Source of the DNA: a bacterium
GTDB taxonomy: Bacteria; JAHJDO01
Length of the DNA: 64,000 nt
Reading direction: 5' to 3'
Assembly (NCBI GenBank): GCA_018812485.1
Contig: JAHJDO010000033.1
Span: 22,435-86,434 of the forward strand
Both the position numbers and the translations under genes were made by a program. Each line of letters starts with the position of its first letter. Position 1 is the first letter of the stretch. The notes under the pieces are model-generated. The model searched no databases and had not been told where the DNA came from. It saw only the letters and a list, made by a program, of their open reading frames with translations. Below are positions 15,795 to 29,713 of the stretch, piece after piece.

Positions 15795-16940
15795 CTAGTA
15801 TGACTCTAAATTCCTGTCTTTAACTTTAAAATCAGGTATTTTGAGCATTTTCCCACCTTGAACTATTGATTCTCTTGCATATATTCCAGGCAGGGTGTAA
15901 TTTAGCGCAGCATTTAAACCTATAACGGGTTGCCGATTACTTCTTATGGCAGATATGAACTCTGTGAGCATCCAATATTCAGTTGTACCATGACCCCCGA
16001 GTTTCATTTCTTTTTTCACTTGAAGTCGCTCGGGAATATACTGACGCATAAAATCATCTAAATCTGTCCATGTGTGTTTAGATGATCGCAAAGAGGGGTT
16101 TTTTGTTTCAGCAAGCATTATTCTTGGTTTGTCGCTAAATCCACGCCCGCTTTCAAAAGCACCATGAGTTCCTTGCACGCCATAAAAGTGCAAAAAAGGT
16201 CGCGGAGATGCTAAATCTACCCTTACCCGGATTATTCTCCCCTTTCTAGTATTCATGAACATTGTATGATTAAATTCAGGACAAAGTTCATGGTCTGGAT
16301 CTATGAGTTTTGTAGAATTGCAAATACATGAAACGCGTTCAACACTGTCGTTGAGGATATAGAGTAAGGGACCAAGGCTGTGCGTGCAATATACCCCTAA
16401 TTCTCCCCTTCCTCTCCATGTCAAATCCCCCTTTTTATTTCGCCATAGATACTTACAATCATGTACATATTCAGCTTCTGCATAGTAAATATCTCCGAAG
16501 AACGCTTCGTCTACAAGTCTTTTAACCAATTCGATGTCGTTACGAAAACAGCAATTTTCTGCAATCATATAATAGGCACAACTTTTTCTTTCAGCTTCAA
16601 TAAGTGTGTCTATTTGTTTTATATTTACAACTGCTGGAACCTCTGATAACACATGAATATCTGCTTTGAGCATAGCAATAGCTTGTTCTGTATGAAATTT
16701 TGGTGGTGAAGAAATTACAACCGCATCTAATCCTGAATTTAAAAAGTTTGTAAAATCAGTAAACCAACGAGGTTCATGTTTTCCCTGTGTGTCAAATTTT
16801 GTGTTATTTCGAACTATATCATAGACAGCTGTCACTTCTATATTTTTTAAAACGCTCAATTGTTTTATTAGACTATTGCCGCGACGATGCTCCTTATTGC
16901 CTGCCCCAATTATACCAAACCGAATTGTATTCTTGTTCAC
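15795..16940 (-). CDS. Gfo/Idh/MocA-family NAD(P)-dependent oxidoreductase
   Basis: 381 aa; Rossmann N-terminus IRFGIIGAGNKEHRRGNSLIKQLSVLKNIEVTAVYD; GTG start. Confidence 0.8.
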   Translation of the reverse strand: MNKNTIRFGIIGAGNKEHRRGNSLIKQLSVLKNIEVTAVYDIVRNNTKFDTQGKHEPRWFTDFTNFLNSGLDAVVISSPPKFHTEQAIAMLKADIHVLSEVPAVVNIKQIDTLIEAERKSCAYYMIAENCCFRNDIELVKRLVDEAFFGDIYYAEAEYVHDCKYLWRNKKGDLTWRGRGELGVYCTHSLGPLLYILNDSVERVSCICNSTKLIDPDHELCPEFNHTMFMNTRKGRIIRVRVDLASPRPFLHFYGVQGTHGAFESGRGFSDKPRIMLAETKNPSLRSSKHTWTDLDDFMRQYIPERLQVKKEMKLGGHGTTEYWMLTEFISAIRSNRQPVIGLNAALNYTLPGIYARESIVQGGKMLKIPDFKVKDRNLESY

Positions 16941-19682: not shown

Positions 19683-20777
19683 TTAGATATCCGGTTTTGT
19701 AGTCATAACTACTTCTCTCAATTGTTCCATGAAATAGCGATAATTATCCCAACTAACATCAGATAAAACAAAATGATCCGGGCCAGGAATGTAGCGCCCC
19801 TTATGTATCAGCTCACGAGCCTTATCTATTTCAACATCAATTTCTCTCTTCCCTTTAGCCATGACATTCTTATCTAATCCTCCTATGACTCCAAGTTCAG
19901 GAAATCTATCCAAAACTCTACTAACATTATTTCCCGCCTGTACTTCGTAGGGGTAAAGGGTGGTCACACCACTCTCCAACATAAGTTCTGTAATATCCTC
20001 AATGTATCCGTCCGAATCGACTAAGATAATTTTGATTCCATGCTCCTTTGCAAAGCACGCGATCTTAAGATAATTTGGCTTCATAAATTTCCGGAACATC
20101 TCAGGAGAAATGAGAGAACCATTCTTTGAAGCCATATCTTCCCAGCACTCGATCAGATCAAAATCGACATCAGCTAGCATCTTGCTCCATATGGAAATAG
20201 CCATGTCTGTGTACGAGTCCATAATGTCATGGACAAGTTCAGGGTCATCATAGAAGGCATATGCAAGATTCACATCACCCATCATGTCGCGGGCAAAGCC
20301 GTATACACCCCTATGGGTCAACTGAAGTGGATAATCACGTGTGTGGAAGCGAGCAACATGTTCTGGCCAGTCCTTTGGAAATCGCTCCGGGTCTTCTGCC
20401 TGCAAATGACGTTCCTTTACTCGATACCAATCCTTTCGGTTCTTTACGGGCCATTCTATCGTCTGAGAATAATGGTTAGCACCCTTTTTAATGATCCTAA
20501 CAGTACCGTCTCCACGGCTCTGAACTATCTGGGAATTATTTTCCTCTATTACTTTTACATCATCTAATTGAGAAGTTCTCATGTTTACACAAGTTCTCTG
20601 CCAACCACGATATTCTCCTTCAAACTGCAGAATTTCATCAATGCGTTCTGCAATGCCAGAGTATTCCTTTTCCCATCCAGACACAATGGCGTTTGTGCCT
20701 CCAAAAACCTTAATAAAAGGCACACGATCTACTTCTTGACCTGTTAATGTTTTTACAAAACGTTCCCGATGATTCAT
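19683..20777 (-). CDS. Uroporphyrinogen decarboxylase (URO-D)/MtaA-family (beta/alpha)8 protein of unknown substrate
   Basis: N-terminus MNHRERFVKTLTGQEVDRVPFIKV matches the URO-D-family start (M..RERv.aaL.Ge.vDRvP). The C-terminal block ...GVIGGLDKNVM...GRYIPGPDHFVLSDVSWDNYRYFMEQL parallels HemE GNMDP...[25 protein letters not shown]. The alternative longer start at 20864 has RBS GAGGAA but would overlap the upstream gene by 79 nt. Confidence 0.55.
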   Translation of the reverse strand: MNHRERFVKTLTGQEVDRVPFIKVFGGTNAIVSGWEKEYSGIAERIDEILQFEGEYRGWQRTCVNMRTSQLDDVKVIEENNSQIVQSRGDGTVRIIKKGANHYSQTIEWPVKNRKDWYRVKERHLQAEDPERFPKDWPEHVARFHTRDYPLQLTHRGVYGFARDMMGDVNLAYAFYDDPELVHDIMDSYTDMAISIWSKMLADVDFDLIECWEDMASKNGSLISPEMFRKFMKPNYLKIACFAKEHGIKIILVDSDGYIEDITELMLESGVTTLYPYEVQAGNNVSRVLDRFPELGVIGGLDKNVMAKGKREIDVEIDKARELIHKGRYIPGPDHFVLSDVSWDNYRYFMEQLREVVMTTKPDI

Positions 20778-20785
20778 AAGACTAG

Positions 20786-23700
20786 TTATAGGTTTATCTC
20801 TACAATGTATTTCTGATATTCGGTTTTGGGAGATAATTTCAAGATTCCATTTTCTACTGGGCATAGAAATTTCCTCGGCTCTCCCTCCTCGTTATAAGCG
20901 GTAACTTTTATTTCTCGACCGGGTTGATAGTTAGATAAAACAGCTTTAAGATTCAAGCTCAGTTCATAACATCCTCTCTGAGGACCGGGGTCAACACCAA
21001 CACAATCCCTATTTAAGACTTCAGGCACATAATCAAGCTTCATTCTCAAATCACCCACAGGTATTATCTCTATCATATTTTCATTTTTCTTAATCAATAC
21101 AGAACCTTTTATCGAACCAAGATTGGGAAATTTAATAAGATTATCTCTTGTATCAATATATATATACTCGGGCGAGTCAACATAATCTATTTTATGGCCA
21201 TCGACAAGCGCAGAATATTCTAATATTTCACCTTTTTTGCCGGCTACAAAACCTGCTTCCGGCAATGAATATTCTCTCCCAAAGAGAGTTACTTTCCACT
21301 GTTCTTTCGAGCCATAATTTATATACATCTCAAGGCCATTCTTATACCGAATATGAAGGCGACTTTCTTTATAGATGTCTTTGGCTATAGCTTCGCTGGT
21401 TGAGTAAAAATTCTTGCCGTCACTGTACTCTATACTCTCTACCTGATCTGCAATGTAATATTTCTGCAACTGCTGAAACATGCAATAATATTTTATTCTG
21501 GCGGAAAATTCCCATGGAGTTGCAAGCAAGGGAATCATTCCTTGATGGCCATATGCTATCGTTGCGGTAATATATTTATCAAAATATATGTCCCGGCCTT
21601 TATTATCCACAAAAATATCATCAGCTCCTTCTCCCCATCCCTTACCAAAAAAAAGCCCCGCAAAAGATGCCATGCCAATTCCAAATTGTAATGGATGAAG
21701 CTTCAAAAGGTCAAAATCAACAAGAAGCGGTTCTTCAAATGGCTTTTCAGGGAAAAATATGGTCGCAAAATCTCCGTCTGTTAAGCCGGCAAACATCCAG
21801 CGCATTCTTCCCTCACTAACTACAATACCTATGTTCTTTTTTGCTTCCAGGAAAAGCTCTCCCCATGAATTAAATATGGCTTTCATCATCGCTGCATCCG
21901 GGACTCTAGCATCGTAATCAATAAAATAACTGGGATTTATATTTGTATGAATATCAAAGTAGCAGATGCCAGTATGAAATTTTCTCCCTACAATCTTTGT
22001 GAGCTTTTTTGAAAGTAAATAATCATAAGGTGGTCTTACATTGTAATTACATTGCCAATGGTAATTTAGCTTCATAGAACCATCCTGATTACGTGCAATA
22101 ATATCTTCATTCCAATATTTACTATTTGTGCCGATCTCTGTATAACCTAAAAACATTCCGAATATATAACCAAGGCTTCGAACATATTCAGAGTATTCCG
22201 ACATTCTTTTATCACCATAATCTGGTCTTACAGTATCACAAAAAAATCCACACCTATTAGGAATTTCTTCGAAGCTCATCCATTGTTCACCATGATGCCA
22301 TGTCATTATATGGTCTAAACCGTACTTCTTTAAAGTCCCCCAGTATCCCGGTCTCGATGCTCCCCCACCAGTCCAGTTACACACATATTTACTGGCAAGT
22401 TCAAGATATGGGGAAGGGGGGTTTGGTATATTAGGCAATACCTCTTGAAAATCAGGAGACACCGTAATAAACAAACGTTCAGCCAGATTATTATAACTAC
22501 CATCGGTTTTTCTTTGATAACGCGTCCCTCCACTATAAATCGCTTCGTTATCTGAAATTAACTTGCTATCTCCATATAAAACAGAGCAATTTGAATTGTA
22601 CCAATCGATTAAAGAAAGCACAAATAGTCCATCACCATAGACAACATGTGGGCCAGCAGCATACCTGCAATCCTGGCCGCTAATACCTAAATAGGGGACC
22701 TTTATTAACCTTAGATTATTTAGTCCTTTGACACGACCGACTTTAAACTCAATAGCTTTCCCGGAATCAGACTTAACATCTGCTATGAGTGATTTTCCTT
22801 TTATTTGCAAGGATAATGTATGTTGAATAACCTCATCTCCTATTTTCCACGCCCATTTGGTATACAATATTTCATTATCTAAAATTTGAGAAATTAATCT
22901 TGCTTTTATTTCCTCATTACCAGGGGCAATATCAGCGAACTGCTTTCCTATTACTATGCCACCTTCTAAGTTAGTATTAAAAGGTTTCTTATCTTTCCAT
23001 GATACTTGAATATCTGACAAGGTCCCGTCTTTAGGAGCATATAGATATACCAGCCTGCCGTCATCACCCTCATAAATAAATTTATAGACTAGTTCTTCCT
23101 GCTCTACCTTATTTATATACCTTTTTGCGCAACCGGGTAAAATAGTATCCTCAGTCGTCGGGAATTTTCCACTCTTAACCAATTTGGGAATATCTAGTTT
23201 AGATTTTTCTTTATAAAATGACAATGAATCCAGATAGACTGTTTTTTTTAATGAACCTTTCTGCTGAGATTCCCCTCCTGTTCTTACAATAATACTAGTC
23301 AATTTTGCAGGGAAATCAATCTCCCCATTTTTATCTCCATCCCAGCTTTTAAATGTTTTGCCGCCTCCTTCTCCTCTCCATCTATGAGGCAAATACATTT
23401 TATGATATAAACGCCAATTTTCTCCAATTAAAGGGCTCATAATTACGTTATGAAATTCATTCCCTGCATCCTGCACAATTATTTCGATTTCCCCTTCCTT
23501 TCCATAATTTTTAGACAATTTCGAATAAACCCAAATTTCAACTGAATCAAAGCTATCCTGAATAGGTATAGGATGAGGAGGCAACAACTCAACATAACCA
23601 CAATACTTCTCAAAAGTAATCTTACAAACAGAATTATCCCATATTCTTACCTCCCGAGAACGCCCAGCTCCTGCCTTTGCTCCATTATGGCAGAGGATCT

Positions 23701-24601
23701 TCCAACCTTCAAGATCTTCAAAATCCACAAGCTCTTTGTGCGAAGATACGTTTCTGCCTGCGGTAATAATATCATAAGGCCTCTCTCCTACATCCTCAGA
23801 CTTACTTATTTTATTTTCAACAAAATCATTTTTATTTTTATTATTCGATCTTACCAATAGCGGACTAAAACTCCGAGCTTTTTTCGATATCATTACTTCA
23901 TCAATAATACCATCAAACATTTGCATGCCTTTATATAATGACCCTATGTATAAATCCTGATCTGTTTCTTGTAATGTACGTATCTGGGCTAGTTGTCTTA
24001 CGACTTCACCATTTTTATAAAGAGTGATATTTGTCCCATCAACCGTAGCCGCTACATGGGCCCATTCTCCAGCATTAATTATCGGCTTACCTATTGTGTG
24101 CTTACCTATTGAAAACACTTCCTGACTCTTACCCTCTTTGCCAAACATATAAAAGTCAAGTTTTCCATCCCAAATAGAAAGGCTATAATTAACTGTCTTT
24201 ACCATGCAACTTCCATGATTTAATATATAATGACGGCCAGAGACATCATTTGGTTTTATCCAGGCTTCAACTGTCAGTTCTCCTGTGAGATCTAATGCAT
24301 CATGATCATTTACCTTTATATATCCCTTACTATCTGGTTTAAACTCAATTGCTTTTCCAAACTTACCTTCTATCCATACGGGTTTTGGATTACCTTCCCA
24401 ATGTCCATTTAGATTATTTGTTCCCGAATCTAGAATCTTGCTACCATTTCCCTCATCAAAGTGCCATAGAGCTACAGTATCCTTATCTGCTTTTGGAGCC
24501 TCTAATAATGGCATATCCTGAGCAAACACTAGATTAATATTAAAAACTACTGTTAAAACAATAATGCCAATCCCTCTAAAAACTACATTCCTTTTCTTCA
24601 T
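20786..24601 (-). CDS. Large secreted protein (1271 aa) with an N-terminal signal peptide and a LamG / concanavalin-A-like domain; remaining ~1000 aa unassigned (candidate novel carbohydrate-active enzyme)
   Basis: ATG at 24601 with a perfect RBS GGAAGGAGAGATT (the track start 24616 is an in-frame TTG). Signal peptide MKKRNVVFRGIGIIVLTVVFNINLVFAQD. LamG-like block LWHFDEGNGSKILDSGTNNLNGHWEG...GELTVEAWIKPND...EWAHVAATVDGTNITLYKNGEVV. No other motif recognised. Confidence 0.7.
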   Translation of the reverse strand: MKKRNVVFRGIGIIVLTVVFNINLVFAQDMPLLEAPKADKDTVALWHFDEGNGSKILDSGTNNLNGHWEGNPKPVWIEGKFGKAIEFKPDSKGYIKVNDHDALDLTGELTVEAWIKPNDVSGRHYILNHGSCMVKTVNYSLSIWDGKLDFYMFGKEGKSQEVFSIGKHTIGKPIINAGEWAHVAATVDGTNITLYKNGEVVRQLAQIRTLQETDQDLYIGSLYKGMQMFDGIIDEVMISKKARSFSPLLVRSNNKNKNDFVENKISKSEDVGERPYDIITAGRNVSSHKELVDFEDLEGWKILCHNGAKAGAGRSREVRIWDNSVCKITFEKYCGYVELLPPHPIPIQDSFDSVEIWVYSKLSKNYGKEGEIEIIVQDAGNEFHNVIMSPLIGENWRLYHKMYLPHRWRGEGGGKTFKSWDGDKNGEIDFPAKLTSIIVRTGGESQQKGSLKKTVYLDSLSFYKEKSKLDIPKLVKSGKFPTTEDTILPGCAKRYINKVEQEELVYKFIYEGDDGRLVYLYAPKDGTLSDIQVSWKDKKPFNTNLEGGIVIGKQFADIAPGNEEIKARLISQILDNEILYTKWAWKIGDEVIQHTLSLQIKGKSLIADVKSDSGKAIEFKVGRVKGLNNLRLIKVPYLGISGQDCRYAAGPHVVYGDGLFVLSLIDWYNSNCSVLYGDSKLISDNEAIYSGGTRYQRKTDGSYNNLAERLFITVSPDFQEVLPNIPNPPSPYLELASKYVCNWTGGGASRPGYWGTLKKYGLDHIMTWHHGEQWMSFEEIPNRCGFFCDTVRPDYGDKRMSEYSEYVRSLGYIFGMFLGYTEIGTNSKYWNEDIIARNQDGSMKLNYHWQCNYNVRPPYDYLLSKKLTKIVGRKFHTGICYFDIHTNINPSYFIDYDARVPDAAMMKAIFNSWGELFLEAKKNIGIVVSEGRMRWMFAGLTDGDFATIFFPEKPFEEPLLVDFDLLKLHPLQFGIGMASFAGLFFGKGWGEGADDIFVDNKGRDIYFDKYITATIAYGHQGMIPLLATPWEFSARIKYYCMFQQLQKYYIADQVESIEYSDGKNFYSTSEAIAKDIYKESRLHIRYKNGLEMYINYGSKEQWKVTLFGREYSLPEAGFVAGKKGEILEYSALVDGHKIDYVDSPEYIYIDTRDNLIKFPNLGSIKGSVLIKKNENMIEIIPVGDLRMKLDYVPEVLNRDCVGVDPGPQRGCYELSLNLKAVLSNYQPGREIKVTAYNEEGEPRKFLCPVENGILKLSPKTEYQKYIVEINL

Positions 24602-24634
24602 AATCTCTCCTTCCAAATTTTTCCATATTTCAAT

Positions 24635-25489
24635 TTATAACCATTTCTCCCGCACTATGACTGATGCCTGTAAAAATTCTTTAATATCAGCGTATTTTTC
24701 TACTGATACCTCTAACATAAAAACCCCATCATATCCTATATCCTGTAATGTTTTTATCACCTCCTCCCAGTTAATATTTCCCTCTCCAGGCATTAAATGA
24801 GAATCTTTTTGACCATCATTGTCGTGTACATGTAAAGCAAATACTCTGTCATTGCAAGAGTTCATTATTTCTTTTGTATATCCACACATATTTGTATGCC
24901 CGATATCTACGAGTACACCGAAACAGTCAGAGTCAAATGTATCTAATAACTCACGGATTTCTTCTATAGTATCTCCCAGATATGTTCTGTTTTCAGTACG
25001 TGGAGGCATTGTCTCAATAGCAACTTTAATATCTTTTGCCTCGCAGTACGTTATAATAGTTTCCAGACTCTTTTTGCAGTTCTCAAACCGTCTATCTCTG
25101 TTTTCTGCGATAGGAAAGGGAGTAGATAGATGAAAGGTAAGCATTGGCCTATCAAAATCCAAAAAAATGTCAACCCAGCTTTTTAAATGATTAATGGCAT
25201 CCTTTCTTTGCACATTATCTATAGATGAAATATCTATTTTGTTTTCATATCCTGTCGCATGTATATGTGTTATTTTTACACCATGCTCTTTTAGTCTTGT
25301 TTTTAAACTAGTCATGTATCCATTATCTGTGTAGTAGCAATGTGGCAGCACCCTTTTTCCTATCTCTATATTTTTTATCCCATATTTAGCGACTAGTGGA
25401 ATGCTATCTAGAAGGTCATTGTTCCACCACCATGCAGAGACACCAAATTTAAATATTTCTTTATCCATATTAGAACTTTTTAGTTTCAA
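24635..25489 (-). CDS. Sugar phosphate isomerase/epimerase (xylose-isomerase-like TIM barrel)
   Basis: 284 aa; ...FGVLVDIGHTNMCGY...VFALHVHDNDGQKDSHLMPGEGNINWEEVIKTLQDIGYDGVFMLEV, typical of the AP-endonuclease-2 / xylose-isomerase-like fold. Confidence 0.75.
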   Translation of the reverse strand: MKLKSSNMDKEIFKFGVSAWWWNNDLLDSIPLVAKYGIKNIEIGKRVLPHCYYTDNGYMTSLKTRLKEHGVKITHIHATGYENKIDISSIDNVQRKDAINHLKSWVDIFLDFDRPMLTFHLSTPFPIAENRDRRFENCKKSLETIITYCEAKDIKVAIETMPPRTENRTYLGDTIEEIRELLDTFDSDCFGVLVDIGHTNMCGYTKEIMNSCNDRVFALHVHDNDGQKDSHLMPGEGNINWEEVIKTLQDIGYDGVFMLEVSVEKYADIKEFLQASVIVREKWL

Positions 25490-25491
25490 AG

Positions 25492-26826
25492 TTACACTAG
25501 TGCTTTATCTTTCATAAGGTTATCCCGGAGTAAGTTAACATCAAGTTTTAAAGGTATTAGGTGGTTTTTTATACATAGACTAGCTGCTGTACCTGCTGCC
25601 TGCCCCATTGCCATACATACTGGCATAACTCTATATGAACCCATAGCTTCATATGTGCCTGAAATACATCTACCAGCTACAATGAGATTTTCTACTTTTT
25701 GAGGTATAAGAGAACGATAAGGTATTGTATAATAGGTGCCCTTTTTCAAAAAATGGTATTCAATCCCTTGCCCTTGAGGATTATGAATGTCTATGGGATA
25801 TGCACATCTAGCTATAGCATCCTTGAAATGTCTAGCTTTCAAAAAATCATCCTTAGTTAACGTGTACTCTCCTCTGATTCTGCGTGTCTCTCTTATCCCC
25901 AGATTTACAGCCATATCTATAATATAGCTATTCCTAAAACCAGGTACATATTTGCGATAAAAATTGGCTATAAATAGGTTTTGATTTCTGGCCAACAAAT
26001 AGGATTGAGTTAAAGAATCGTTATCTATACCATCCACACGGACTCTTGAAATATTTATAAATACTTGTCCTTTAATAGGAAGTTTGGAGACACCAGATTG
26101 AAATCTTAAGTTTTCAGCATTTTGAACAGGAAATTCTCCTCTTGCCAGAGCTTCTTTATATAACTGTTGAAATTTTTCCCATGAGACAGCTTTGTATTCA
26201 TCAAAGTTTACATTGCCCATCCTAAAACAAAGCGTTCCCGCCTGTAACAATTTTCTATTTTGGGACCAACCCTTTCGGCATGGAACACCACTTAAAAAAG
26301 CAACATCTGCATCACCTGTAGCATCTATGAATATTTTTCCCTTAATAGCCTGAAAGCCTGATTTGTTCCAAACTATTATAGTGTCTATAGTTGATTCTTT
26401 TACTATTGCCTTACAAAAGACCGATTGGAACTTTTTGATAACTTCTGTTTCATTCAGTAATTTAAGAAGAACAGTTTGTAACATTTCTTTGTCAAAGGAA
26501 AGACCTACATCCTTTCTAAAATCACCCAACAAACCTCCAACTTGTCTCATGCGATTAACAATTTCTAAAGGAATCCCACCTATAACAAGATTGCCTTTGT
26601 TATCGTTGTATTGAAGAAAAAGTTGAACACCACCAACTGTTGCCATTCCACCAACAATTGCATATCGTTCAACCAAAACTACTTTAATCCCATTCCTGGC
26701 AGCAGCTATAGCTGCTGCGCACCCGGCTGGGCCACCACCTATTACCACGACGTCTGTGTTTAACACCACGGGAACTCTAGTATTCAAAGACACCAATTTA
26801 TGACCTTTTTTTATGGAATAACCCAC
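25492..26826 (-). CDS. FAD-dependent oxidoreductase (glycan-locus-associated FAD_oxidored type)
   Basis: 444 aa; dinucleotide-binding N-terminus [43 protein letters not shown]. Confidence 0.75.
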
Positions 26827-27428
26827 CAGCTACTCTCCGTATCTTCCTGAGTGTACCAATCAACGTGACCGTCGAAGAAAAGGAAATTTGCTCCATTGTT
26901 ATGAACATAACTAACCTGACTACTATTGGCCATTCGATAGCGTGCAGCTCCTGCAGCCTCAAATCCTCCATCACTCACTGCAACTTTATCGCTGGGAATA
27001 CTAATCCGGCCTAACCTAAACTGCTGATTTTGATTGGGCGAACAATCTGCATTACCGAGATAGGCATTGTAGGCATAATTGACATTGTATGTTCCGAAAG
27101 CTCCAAGGTCCTTATTGCTTTGACAAAATAACAATGATGGTACATTCTTTAGGTCTACCTTCACTCCGTACGGCTCTAAGCATCTATACCAGGTTGCACC
27201 AGACCAAGCCATTGGTACATAGTCATCCCAGTCTGATGCGTACATTATGAGCATCTGATGAACTTGTCTTAGATTACTGATGCATTTTGCACGTCTTGCC
27301 ATCTCTCTTGCCTTGCTAAGTGCCGGGAGCAGCATACTGGCAAGCAAGCCGATAACTGCAATCACGACCAGGAGTTCTAAAAGCGTAAATCCGACACATC
27401 CAAACTTATCCCTCACCCATTTCATCAT
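26811..27428 (-). CDS. Prepilin-type N-terminal cleavage/methylation protein with C-terminal H-X9-DG motif (DUF1559 family)
   Basis: Prepilin leader and hydrophobic helix [36 protein letters not shown]-terminal [16 protein letters not shown] (H-X9-DG). RBS GAGGAGGG. Confidence 0.8.
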
Positions 27429-28636: not shown

Positions 28637-29713
28637 TTAATACCAGCCATAATGCGAAAGTACTTCTTCAGCTTCTTTTTGAGATGAACAACGGGTGGAA
28701 ATTAATAGGCCTTCTGGAGAAAGATTCTCCAGAACAAAATCAATTTCATGTGGTTCACATAAAACCATAATTGCCTTCTTTTTAGCCTGCATTTTCTTAT
28801 AAATTGGTATCCACTTAACAATACCCTCTTTTCTAAATCCAGCTCCAGGAACCCACTCAATTGCATTAAGCCTTGTAATTTCAAGAAGCATATCCAGATG
28901 TTTCAAAGCATCTGGTCCATCAAGATGATAGACCGAATAATCCAGATAATTGATTTCGTTTAGTATTTCTTCTAAGAAAAACTCTTCATACATCTTGGTA
29001 GAAATAAGACATGTAAAATCGTTTTGAACAGGATACATCTTTCCTGGGGCCCAAATATCTATCCAAGAACATATTCCCTTTTGTTTCTCTCTTATAATCT
29101 GATAGCTTTCCTCATAAACTTTATGCCATGAGTTCCATAAAAGTTTCATAGCCTTTTTGACTCCATCAGGATTATCAATTAAATCTATACATAATTTCTC
29201 GGGGCCTCCCCTTAAAACTGCTAATGAATCCATACCAGCATGAAGGTCCGTTATGCCAACAAGGTAATTCCCATGGGAGCGTTCCAGAGCATAGGATGTA
29301 AACTCTTTTGTTTTCTGCCAATAGAAATTATCTTCTTTAATCTCAAGACCAGACAAATCAGAATAATCCTTTAGAACTGGCCTGTTCCAGTTTATCCAAG
29401 AAACAGGTTGATTAGAACCAAGTGGAGAAAATTCCAGGGTTGCACCCATATAAGCAGAGAAAACATCAGGACCAAAGTTTGTCCAATATTGGGGAAAAGC
29501 CAACCCGCCATAAAAGGTGTTTTGAATTTTTCGCTCTGCAAGTTTAATAACCTTCTCTTTATTAAGTCTATCTTTTGGACTTCCAATATACGTTTCATCT
29601 TGTTGATGCTTCTCGCGTGGAGCTTTTACCTCAAGAGCTGCTTTATCCAGAACCTCACAGTTCCACCACGCTATGTAATATTTTTTTATCTTTTCAAAAT
29701 CTTTATTTATCAT
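28637..29713 (-). CDS. Hypothetical protein, 358 aa; weak resemblance to URO-D/MtaA-like TIM-barrel proteins (unverified)
   Basis: Long ORF abutting the GH4 gene stop. A loose URO-D-like pattern (...YHLDGPDALKHLDMLLEITRLNAIEWVPGAG...) but no firm motif. Confidence 0.3.
   Translation of the reverse strand: MINKDFEKIKKYYIAWWNCEVLDKAALEVKAPREKHQQDETYIGSPKDRLNKEKVIKLAERKIQNTFYGGLAFPQYWTNFGPDVFSAYMGATLEFSPLGSNQPVSWINWNRPVLKDYSDLSGLEIKEDNFYWQKTKEFTSYALERSHGNYLVGITDLHAGMDSLAVLRGGPEKLCIDLIDNPDGVKKAMKLLWNSWHKVYEESYQIIREKQKGICSWIDIWAPGKMYPVQNDFTCLISTKMYEEFFLEEILNEINYLDYSVYHLDGPDALKHLDMLLEITRLNAIEWVPGAGFRKEGIVKWIPIYKKMQAKKKAIMVLCEPHEIDFVLENLSPEGLLISTRCSSQKEAEEVLSHYGWY

What the first reader, a model, noticed from the sequence alone, without database searches (positions are those of the whole stretch)
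20786..24601. 1271-aa secreted LamG-domain protein of unknown function inside a glycoside-hydrolase operon: candidate new CAZyme family
The largest gene in the window has a clear signal peptide and a ~220-aa concanavalin-A/LamG-like lectin domain. The remaining ~1000 residues carry no motif I can assign to any GH, PL, CE or peptidase family. It sits between a URO-D-family gene and a TIM-barrel sugar isomerase. It appears co-transcribed with GH78, GH38 and GH4 enzymes, which is the usual context for a catalytic glycan-active protein rather than a structural one.
Basis: partly seen in the sequence, partly recalled or inferred. Interest (0 to 1): 0.65.

Follow-up and report, generated by a model that had tools for sequence, protein, structure and literature searches.

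The report
Secreted GH101/GH129-like alpha-glycosidase, uncharacterised family
The large "unknown" protein is very probably a secreted sugar-cleaving enzyme: behind its lectin-like module sits a barrel-shaped catalytic domain distantly related to two known enzyme families (GH101 and GH129), and it belongs to a sizeable, unstudied family found almost only in uncultured bacteria, so its target sugar is still unknown.

Summary
The gene is real: minus strand, ATG 24601 to stop 20786-20788, 1271 aa, with a Sec-type signal peptide and a Laminin_G_3 domain. No Pfam, NCBIfam or single-sequence PDB match covers residues 260-1271.

D883 aligns with the NagBb catalytic Asp435 and is kept in 258 of 259 family members. 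E930, at the end of strand 5, is also kept in 258 of 259.

I read it as a secreted, probably retaining, alpha-glycosidase of an uncharacterised family: about 1100 clusters at 50% identity, in PVC bacteria, Armatimonadota and Hydrogenedentota. It is related to GH101, GH129 and DUF5696 at superfamily level.

The glycosidase operon around it is not conserved in 84 homologous loci, so context says little about substrate. This is a candidate new GH family, not a new kind of enzyme.

The parts
20786..24601 (-). Complete gene, 1271 codons plus stop (20786-20788). Identical to NCBI MBU0477418.1, 'LamG domain-containing protein [bacterium]'.
24521..24601 (-). Predicted Sec signal peptide, residues 1-27 (cleavage VFA|QD)
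   Evidence: Read from the sequence, by eye. At least 155 of 217 full-length homologues also pass a simple signal-peptide heuristic.
23870..24331 (-). LamG / concanavalin-A-like module (Pfam Laminin_G_3, residues 91-244). An accessory, probably carbohydrate-binding, module that is not part of the conserved family core.
   Evidence: E 4.5e-24. One search shows that most homologues lack it or carry other modules in its place.
23210..23707 (-). First beta-sandwich of the conserved core (residues ~299-464)
   Evidence: AF2 model strands 42-204 in C-terminal numbering. The family profile matches spirochaete FlaA sheath proteins here, E 3e-6.
22457..23119 (-). Large N-terminal beta-sandwich preceding the barrel (residues ~495-715), as in GH101, GH129, GH31 and GH36
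21455..22387 (-). (beta/alpha)8 catalytic barrel (residues ~739-1049)
21953..21955 (-). Codon of D883, the proposed catalytic nucleophile (motif YFDIHT, end of strand 4)
   Evidence: Aligns with NagBb D435 and with the EngBF YLDV Asp. D435 is named as catalytic in PMC5698469. Conserved in 258 of 259 members.
21812..21814 (-). Codon of E930, the proposed general acid/base (motif VSEG, end of strand 5)
   Evidence: Conserved in 258 of 259 members. Position taken from the model's secondary structure. The role is inferred.
21917..21919 (-). Codon of D895, a third near-invariant carboxylate (motif DYDAR, loop after strand 4). Role unknown; substrate or metal binding is possible.
   Evidence: Conserved in 255 of 258 members
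21035..21442 (-). C-terminal beta-sandwich of the conserved core (residues ~1054-1189)
20795..20995 (-). Terminal small beta domain (residues ~1203-1269), shared only with the closest homologues

Best explanation
The gene encodes a secreted, multi-domain glycoside hydrolase of an uncharacterised family. That family is a remote branch of the GH101/GH129 (and DUF5696) alpha-glycosidase superfamily.

Proposed working:
- A Sec signal peptide exports the protein.
- The LamG module and the first beta-sandwich hold it on a glycan.
- The (beta/alpha)8 barrel cleaves an alpha-glycosidic bond by double displacement, with retention of configuration. D883, at the end of strand 4, acts as nucleophile, and E930, at the end of strand 5, acts as general acid/base.

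The closest solved relatives all act on alpha-galacto-configured sugars: GalNAc-alpha-Ser/Thr, 3,6-anhydro-alpha-D-galactose, alpha-Gal and alpha-GalN. A galacto-type alpha-linkage is therefore my best guess for the substrate, but it is only a guess.

In this genome the target is the only enzyme in the cluster that I read as carrying a Sec-type signal peptide; the only other exported-type N-terminus is the prepilin-like DUF1559 protein. It may therefore make the extracellular first cut, with products finished inside the cell by the GH4 alpha-galactosidase, the GH38, the GH78 and AraB/AraD.

Shown here: the gene, its domain architecture, homology to GH101/GH129, and conservation of the carboxylates. 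Inferred: hydrolase activity, retention, the role of E930, the substrate and the link to the operon.
For: - A profile of 58 homologues hits GH129 NagBb (5wzn) at E 2.3e-12 and ZgGH129 (5opq) at 1.5e-4.
- A catalytic-domain-only profile hits NagBb at 1.3e-9, EngBF GH101 at 2.7e-4, ZgGH129 at 7.5e-4 and SpGH101 at 9e-4.
- The NagBb and EngBF alignments that were printed place the family's YxDvHT Asp (D883) on the NagBb D435 / EngBF YLDV Asp. D435 is a catalytic residue according to PMC5698469.
- The AF2 model has pLDDT 89.4 and pTM 0.91.
- Foldseek top hits, all at probability 1.0: GH101 3ecq at 5e-22, EngBF at 8e-17, ZgGH129 at 5e-16 and NagBb at 1.7e-12.
- Conservation: D883 in 258 of 259 members, E930 in 258 of 259, D895 in 255 of 258.
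- W849 aligns with NagBb W398, the GalNAc stacking platform, and is Trp in 78 of 114 members.
- Family members carry swapped carbohydrate-binding-type modules: LamG, CBM_4_9, CBM96, DUF1080.
- Most members have signal peptides, and several genomes hold more than one copy. These features are typical of catabolic CAZymes.
- The N-termini of the other enzymes in the cluster show no signal-peptide features by eye.
Against: - No biochemical data exist for any member, and no paper mentions DUF5696 or DUF6259.
- The HMM alignments to solved enzymes stop right after the nucleophile. The equivalence of E930 with the acid/base of NagBb (E478) or of GH101 therefore rests only on its position at the end of strand 5 and on its invariance.
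- ZgGH129 shows that acid/base residues are not conserved across this superfamily.
- I could not inspect model coordinates, so pocket shape (exo versus endo) and carboxylate distances are unknown.
- The operon link is weak because the context is not conserved.
- The query itself matches no Pfam GH model.
Confidence: 0.7

Rival explanations
1. It is simply a very divergent member of an existing CAZy family (GH129 or GH101), not a separate family. It would then be an ordinary alpha-N-acetylgalactosaminidase-type or anhydro-galactosidase-type enzyme.
For: - The family profile reaches NagBb at E 2e-12.
- ZgGH129 is treated as GH129 or GH129-like although it shares only 16% identity with NagBb, so the family as used is broad.
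- Some distant relatives pass the Pfam GH101 threshold.
- The domain order is the same.
Against: - Single-sequence phmmer against PDB finds nothing.
- The query's catalytic domain matches no Pfam model even at E<=1.
- The HMM alignments cover only ~140 residues, strands 1-4.
- Structural alignments show 9-11% identity.
- The authors of the ZgGH129 structure themselves argued that such divergence merits a new family.
- I could not run the CAZy or dbCAN models.
Confidence: 0.2
2. It is a non-catalytic surface or secreted glycan-binding protein (adhesin or lectin scaffold) built on a dead glycosidase fold.
For: - It carries a LamG module and several beta-sandwich modules.
- There is a sub-threshold match to the fimbrial protein TafC.
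- The first beta-sandwich resembles the flagellar sheath protein FlaA.
- Homologues are stand-alone genes.
Against: - The nucleophile-position Asp and a strand-5 Glu are kept in 258 of 259 members across many phyla. Pseudo-enzymes normally lose such residues.
- The TafC match lies only on the LamG part, at 36 bits against a cut-off of 410.
- The barrel is the best-conserved part of the family.
Confidence: 0.06
3. It is a transglycosylase or glycan-remodelling enzyme acting on the cell's own envelope or exopolysaccharide, rather than a catabolic hydrolase.
For: - Homologues usually sit outside sugar-catabolic operons.
Against: - Several genomes hold more than one copy, and accessory binding modules are swapped among members. 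Both point to diversified catabolic specificities.
- In this window the gene lies among catabolic genes under a LacI-type regulator.
- No envelope-biosynthesis genes recur next to the homologues.
Confidence: 0.1

Closest known systems
GH129 alpha-N-acetylgalactosaminidase NagBb, Bifidobacterium bifidum (PDB 5WZN)
   Same: - It is the best sequence-profile match (E 2.3e-12).
- Its catalytic Asp435 aligns with D883, and its stacking Trp398 aligns with W849.
   Different: - Identity is about 10%, and the sequence alignment covers only strands 1-4.
- NagBb is ~640 aa, and no secretion signal or accessory binding modules are described for it in the sources I read. The target is twice as long, with a signal peptide, a LamG module and extra beta-sandwiches.
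- The acid/base and Ca2+ ligands could not be matched.
ZgGH129 / DagB alpha-1,3-(3,6-anhydro)-D-galactosidase, Zobellia galactanivorans (PDB 5OPQ, 8RZK)
   Same: - It is a periplasmic or secreted enzyme of polysaccharide catabolism.
- It has a conserved Asp at the nucleophile position (D486).
   Different: - Identity is 11%, and the profile E-value is only 1.5e-4.
- DagB needs a residue (D202) from the second monomer, plus E517 and E531. Whether counterparts exist here is unknown.
- There is no carrageenan-related context in this window.
GH101 endo-alpha-N-acetylgalactosaminidases (EngBF 2ZXQ, SpGH101 3ECQ/5A55)
   Same: - They give the best Foldseek E-values (5e-22 to 1e-15).
- They are large secreted multi-domain enzymes with the same domain order.
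- The YLDV nucleophile motif aligns with YFDI.
   Different: - Pfam Glyco_hydro_101 does not match the query.
- Identity is ~10% and global TM only ~0.3.
- No CBM32-type C-terminal domains were detected.
- The mucin-type substrate is unlikely for what appear to be environmental, uncultured-bacterium (MAG) sources.
Pfam DUF5696 (PF18952), uncharacterised
   Same: The most distant detectable relatives of the query (P0102-P0120, E 1e-55 to 1e-30) carry weak DUF5696 matches on the same ~90-residue stretch of the barrel.
   Different: The query and its nearer relatives do not match the DUF5696 model. DUF5696 has no known function and no literature.

Membership tests
GH101/GH129 superfamily (fold and mechanism level) | An N-terminal beta-sandwich, then a (beta/alpha)8 catalytic barrel, then C-terminal beta-sandwich domain(s) | tested here: met
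   [not shown]
GH101/GH129 superfamily (fold and mechanism level) | A catalytic Asp nucleophile at the end of strand 4 (NagBb D435; the EngBF YLDV Asp) | tested here: met
   HMM alignments place D883 on that Asp. It is conserved in 258 of 259 members. D435 is named as catalytic in PMC5698469.
GH101/GH129 superfamily (fold and mechanism level) | A Glu general acid/base on the following strand (NagBb E478; SpGH101 E796) | tested here: inconclusive
   E930 is invariant (258 of 259) and sits at the end of strand 5 of the model.
CAZy family GH129 (family-level membership) | Significant sequence similarity to NagBb or ZgDagB over the whole catalytic domain | tested here: not met
   phmmer of the protein against PDB gives no hit. 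Profile alignments cover only ~140 residues. Structural alignments show 9-11% identity. The CAZy and dbCAN models themselves were not available.
CAZy family GH101 (family-level membership) | A match to Pfam Glyco_hydro_101 (PF12905) | tested here: not met
   There is no match at E<=1 for the full protein or for its catalytic domain. Only 2 of 24 family representatives, the most distant ones, match.
Pfam DUF5696 (PF18952) | A match to the model above its gathering score | tested here: not met
   The query gives no match. 5 of 24 representatives match, partially (profile positions 266-374 of 612).
Laminin_G_3 / concanavalin-A-like lectin domain | A match to Pfam PF13385 above its gathering score | tested here: met
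   E 4.5e-24, 85.8 bits against a cut-off of 27.6, residues 91-244.
Glycoside hydrolase (any family) | Demonstrated hydrolysis of a glycosidic bond | not testable with these tools
   This needs expression and enzyme assays. No member of the family has been characterised, as far as the searched literature shows.

The most novel reading that the evidence does not exclude
The protein is a founding example of a new CAZy glycoside-hydrolase family, a sister to GH101 and GH129. On this reading the family is widespread in uncultured Planctomycetota, Verrucomicrobiota, Kiritimatiellota, Lentisphaerota, Armatimonadota and Hydrogenedentota, and it cleaves an alpha-linked glycan for which no enzyme is yet known, for example a linkage in algal, microbial or plant heteropolysaccharides.
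Probability: 0.45. Interest if true: 0.55.

Novelty: new variant of a known kind. Interest (0 to 1): 0.42.

Why it matters
If confirmed, about 1100 sequence clusters now annotated as 'hypothetical' or 'LamG domain' proteins would become recognisable as glycosidases. These proteins occur in poorly studied, polysaccharide-degrading phyla, so glycan-degradation predictions for their metagenomes would improve. A new alpha-glycosidase specificity might also emerge. It would extend the small GH101/GH129 group, which so far has very few characterised activities. It would not change any concept, because the fold, the likely mechanism and the modular layout are all standard for CAZymes.

Tried and rejected
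- **Single-sequence searches:** Pfam, NCBIfam and PDB phmmer found only the LamG module.
- **TafC fimbrial match:** I rejected it as an identity. It scores 36 bits against a cut-off of 410 and covers only the LamG region.
- **Weak HLA-DR beta hits in PDB:** chance matches at E ~0.3.
- **Operon-based substrate inference:** I looked for the window's neighbours around 84 homologous loci and found none conserved. Clustering of the neighbour ORFs gave only families that are generically abundant in PVC bacteria: GFO oxidoreductases, sulfatases and DUF1559.
- **Second database search with the catalytic-domain alignment:** it returned only 7 short fragments and added nothing.
- **AlphaFold-database fold search:** unavailable.
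- **First structure job with 114 sequences:** too large; I repeated it with 58.
- **Literature:** searches for DUF5696, DUF6259, PF18952 and GHL1-3 gave nothing relevant. A GH129 mention in a rice GH27 paper was irrelevant.
- **Promoter and terminator scans:** at chance level.
- **Taxonomy of the window:** not determined. The NCBI record says only 'bacterium'.
Full report
**Observation**

The window has an ORF at 20786..24616 on the minus strand. It is the largest ORF in the window.

The N-terminus (MKKRNVVFRGIGIIVLTVVFNINLVFA|QD) looks like a Sec signal peptide; I judged this by eye. Pfam finds Laminin_G_3 at residues 91-244 (E 4.5e-24) and nothing else, even at E<=1. NCBIfam gives only a far sub-threshold TafC match on the same LamG stretch. 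A single-sequence search of PDB sequences finds nothing.

The neighbours are as stated. All lie on the minus strand, listed in order of transcription:
- GH4 alpha-galactosidase-like gene
- a 358-aa ORF with no hits
- LacI regulator
- DUF1559 prepilin-like gene
- PF12831 FAD oxidoreductase
- xylose-isomerase-like TIM gene
- the target
- URO-D/MtaA-like gene
- GH38
- GFO/IDH/MocA oxidoreductase
- GH78-like gene
- ribulokinase AraB
- L-ribulose-5-phosphate 4-epimerase AraD

**The family**

A search with residues 260-1271 found 120 proteins. One is the identical NCBI entry MBU0477418.1, 'LamG domain-containing protein [bacterium]'. All other hits are at most 40% identical, and almost all are unnamed.

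The conserved core spans residues ~265-1185. The LamG module is not part of it. Other members carry CBM_4_9, CBM96/disaggregatase repeats, DUF1080 or long unannotated C-terminal extensions instead.

An exhaustive HMMER search of 1.84 billion representatives found 1123 clusters at E<=1e-3 and 369 at E<=1e-30. A scan of one genome per species found 186 relatives. The 80 loci that were listed are nearly all from metagenome-assembled genomes and none is from a named isolate. They come from Planctomycetota, Verrucomicrobiota, Kiritimatiellota, Lentisphaerota, Armatimonadota, Hydrogenedentota, Omnitrophota, Sumerlaeota, Poribacteria and 'Zipacnadia', and several genomes hold more than one copy. At least 155 of 217 full-length members pass a strict signal-peptide heuristic.

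**What the C-terminal 1000 residues are**

The most distant hits carry weak Pfam matches to DUF5696, Glyco_hydro_101 and DUF6259. All three fall on the same ~90-residue stretch.

A profile built from 58 members (A2) hits solved structures:
- GH129 alpha-N-acetylgalactosaminidase NagBb (5wzn): E 2.3e-12
- ZgGH129 3,6-anhydro-D-galactosidase (5opq): E 1.5e-4

A profile of the catalytic region alone (A3, residues 724-1059) hits NagBb at 1.3e-9, GH101 EngBF at 2.7e-4, ZgGH129 at 7.5e-4 and SpGH101 at 9e-4.

An AlphaFold2 model of residues 260-1271 made with A2 is confident (pLDDT 89.4, pTM 0.91). It shows, in order: a beta-sandwich, a large beta-sandwich, an eight-stranded (beta/alpha) barrel, a further beta-sandwich and a small terminal beta domain.

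| Search | Target | Score |
|---|---|---|
| Foldseek vs PDB | GH101 3ecq | E 5e-22 |
| Foldseek vs PDB | GH101 EngBF 2zxq | E 8e-17 |
| Foldseek vs PDB | ZgGH129 5opq | E 5e-16, target TM 0.56 |
| Foldseek vs PDB | NagBb 5wzn | E 1.7e-12, target TM ~0.6 |

**Active site**

The printed HMM alignments to NagBb and EngBF end at the motif YxDV(H)T. Its Asp is D883 here (YFDIHT). It falls on NagBb Asp435 and on the Asp of EngBF's YLDV. PMC5698469 names Asp435 as one of the two catalytic residues of NagBb, and says it is the one conserved in ZgDagB, as Asp486.

Conservation over 259 aligned family members:
- D883: 258 of 259
- E930 (VSEG): 258 of 259
- D895 (DYDAR): 255 of 258
- G939: invariant
- H969: 239
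- D962: 228

In the model D883 follows strand 4 and E930 ends strand 5. This is the nucleophile and acid/base arrangement of GH13-like barrels, to which GH101 is compared. W849 aligns with NagBb Trp398, the GalNAc stacking platform, and is Trp in 78 of 114 members.

The role of E930 is an inference. No residue-level alignment to a known acid/base was obtained, and ZgDagB shows that acid/base residues vary within this superfamily.

**Context**

In this window the target is separated by 33 nt from the upstream TIM gene and by 8 nt from the likely start of the URO-D-like gene. It is the only enzyme in the cluster that I read as having a Sec-type signal peptide. That suits a model in which it makes the extracellular cut and cytoplasmic GH4, GH38, GH78 and AraB/AraD finish the products.

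The context is not conserved, however. Two homologues examined in detail are stand-alone genes among unrelated functions. In 84 homologous loci none of GH78, GH38, GH4, AraB, AraD, the URO-D-like gene or the TIM gene lies within 10 kb. The only recurring neighbours are families that are abundant everywhere in PVC genomes. Context therefore supports 'glycan catabolism' only weakly and says almost nothing about the substrate. Promoter and terminator scans were at chance level.

**Interpretation and rivals**

The best explanation (confidence 0.7) is a secreted, probably retaining, alpha-glycosidase of an uncharacterised family, with D883 as nucleophile and E930 as acid/base, and with LamG and beta-sandwich modules for glycan binding. 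An alpha-galacto-type substrate is a weak guess, based on what the nearest solved relatives cleave.

Rivals:
- **Divergent member of GH129 or GH101 rather than a separate family (0.2).** This is a classification question that needs the CAZy models.
- **Transglycosylase or envelope-remodelling enzyme (0.1).**
- **Non-catalytic binding protein on a dead fold (0.06).** This is disfavoured by the near-invariant carboxylates.

**Comparison with the known**

The protein works like GH101/GH129 enzymes and shares their fold, domain order and nucleophile. Family-level membership tests fail: there is no Pfam GH101 or DUF5696 match for the query, no single-sequence similarity to any solved member, and only partial profile alignments. 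No paper in the searchable library mentions DUF5696 or DUF6259.

I file it as a new variant of a known kind: a candidate new GH family within a known superfamily.

**Verdict**

The idea of a candidate CAZyme is reasonable. The claim of no detectable relationship to known GH families does not survive profile and structure searches, and the operon argument is weak.

Interest is moderate (0.42). This is a useful annotation lead for a sizeable dark family in understudied phyla, but it is mechanistically conventional.

Noticed in passing
window 23210-23707 (residues ~299-464 of the target): The first conserved beta-sandwich of the family matches spirochaete flagellar filament sheath proteins (FlaA; chains 10lm_V0, 10pl_C, 9pin_A7) at E ~3e-6 with the family profile. 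This is an unexpected sequence-level link between a glycosidase accessory domain and a flagellar sheath protein.
   Followed up: no
window 15795-16940, 24635-25489, 25492-26826: The cluster holds three redox or isomerase-type genes. One is a GFO/IDH/MocA oxidoreductase with a weak levoglucosan-dehydrogenase match. One is a xylose-isomerase-like TIM protein whose best PDB match is MJ1311 (4e-22). One is a PF12831 FAD oxidoreductase. Together they could form an oxidative (3-keto-sugar) glycoside-processing route alongside the hydrolases.
   Followed up: partly
window 19683-20777: A URO-D/MtaA-like (methylcobamide methyltransferase-like) gene sits 8 nt downstream of the target, inside a sugar operon. 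Its mechanical ORF start (20864) overlaps the target by 79 nt; the ATG at 20777 is more likely. A role in handling O-methylated sugars is pure speculation.
   Followed up: partly
window 28637-29713: A 358-aa ORF directly abuts the GH4 gene (0-nt gap). It has no Pfam, NCBIfam or PDB sequence match.
   Followed up: partly
window 26811-27428: A DUF1559 protein with an N-terminal prepilin methylation motif is embedded in the glycan cluster and overlaps the FAD oxidoreductase gene by 16 nt. The same family recurs near homologues of the target in 6-7 of 84 loci.
   Followed up: no
The cluster therefore ends in L-arabinose catabolism.
   Followed up: yes
loci L018/L034, L022/L046, L050/L061; proteins P0092/P0094: Several metagenome-assembled genomes carry two copies of the family. 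In one Planctomycetes contig, two paralogues with different N-terminal modules have locus tags only six apart.
   Followed up: no
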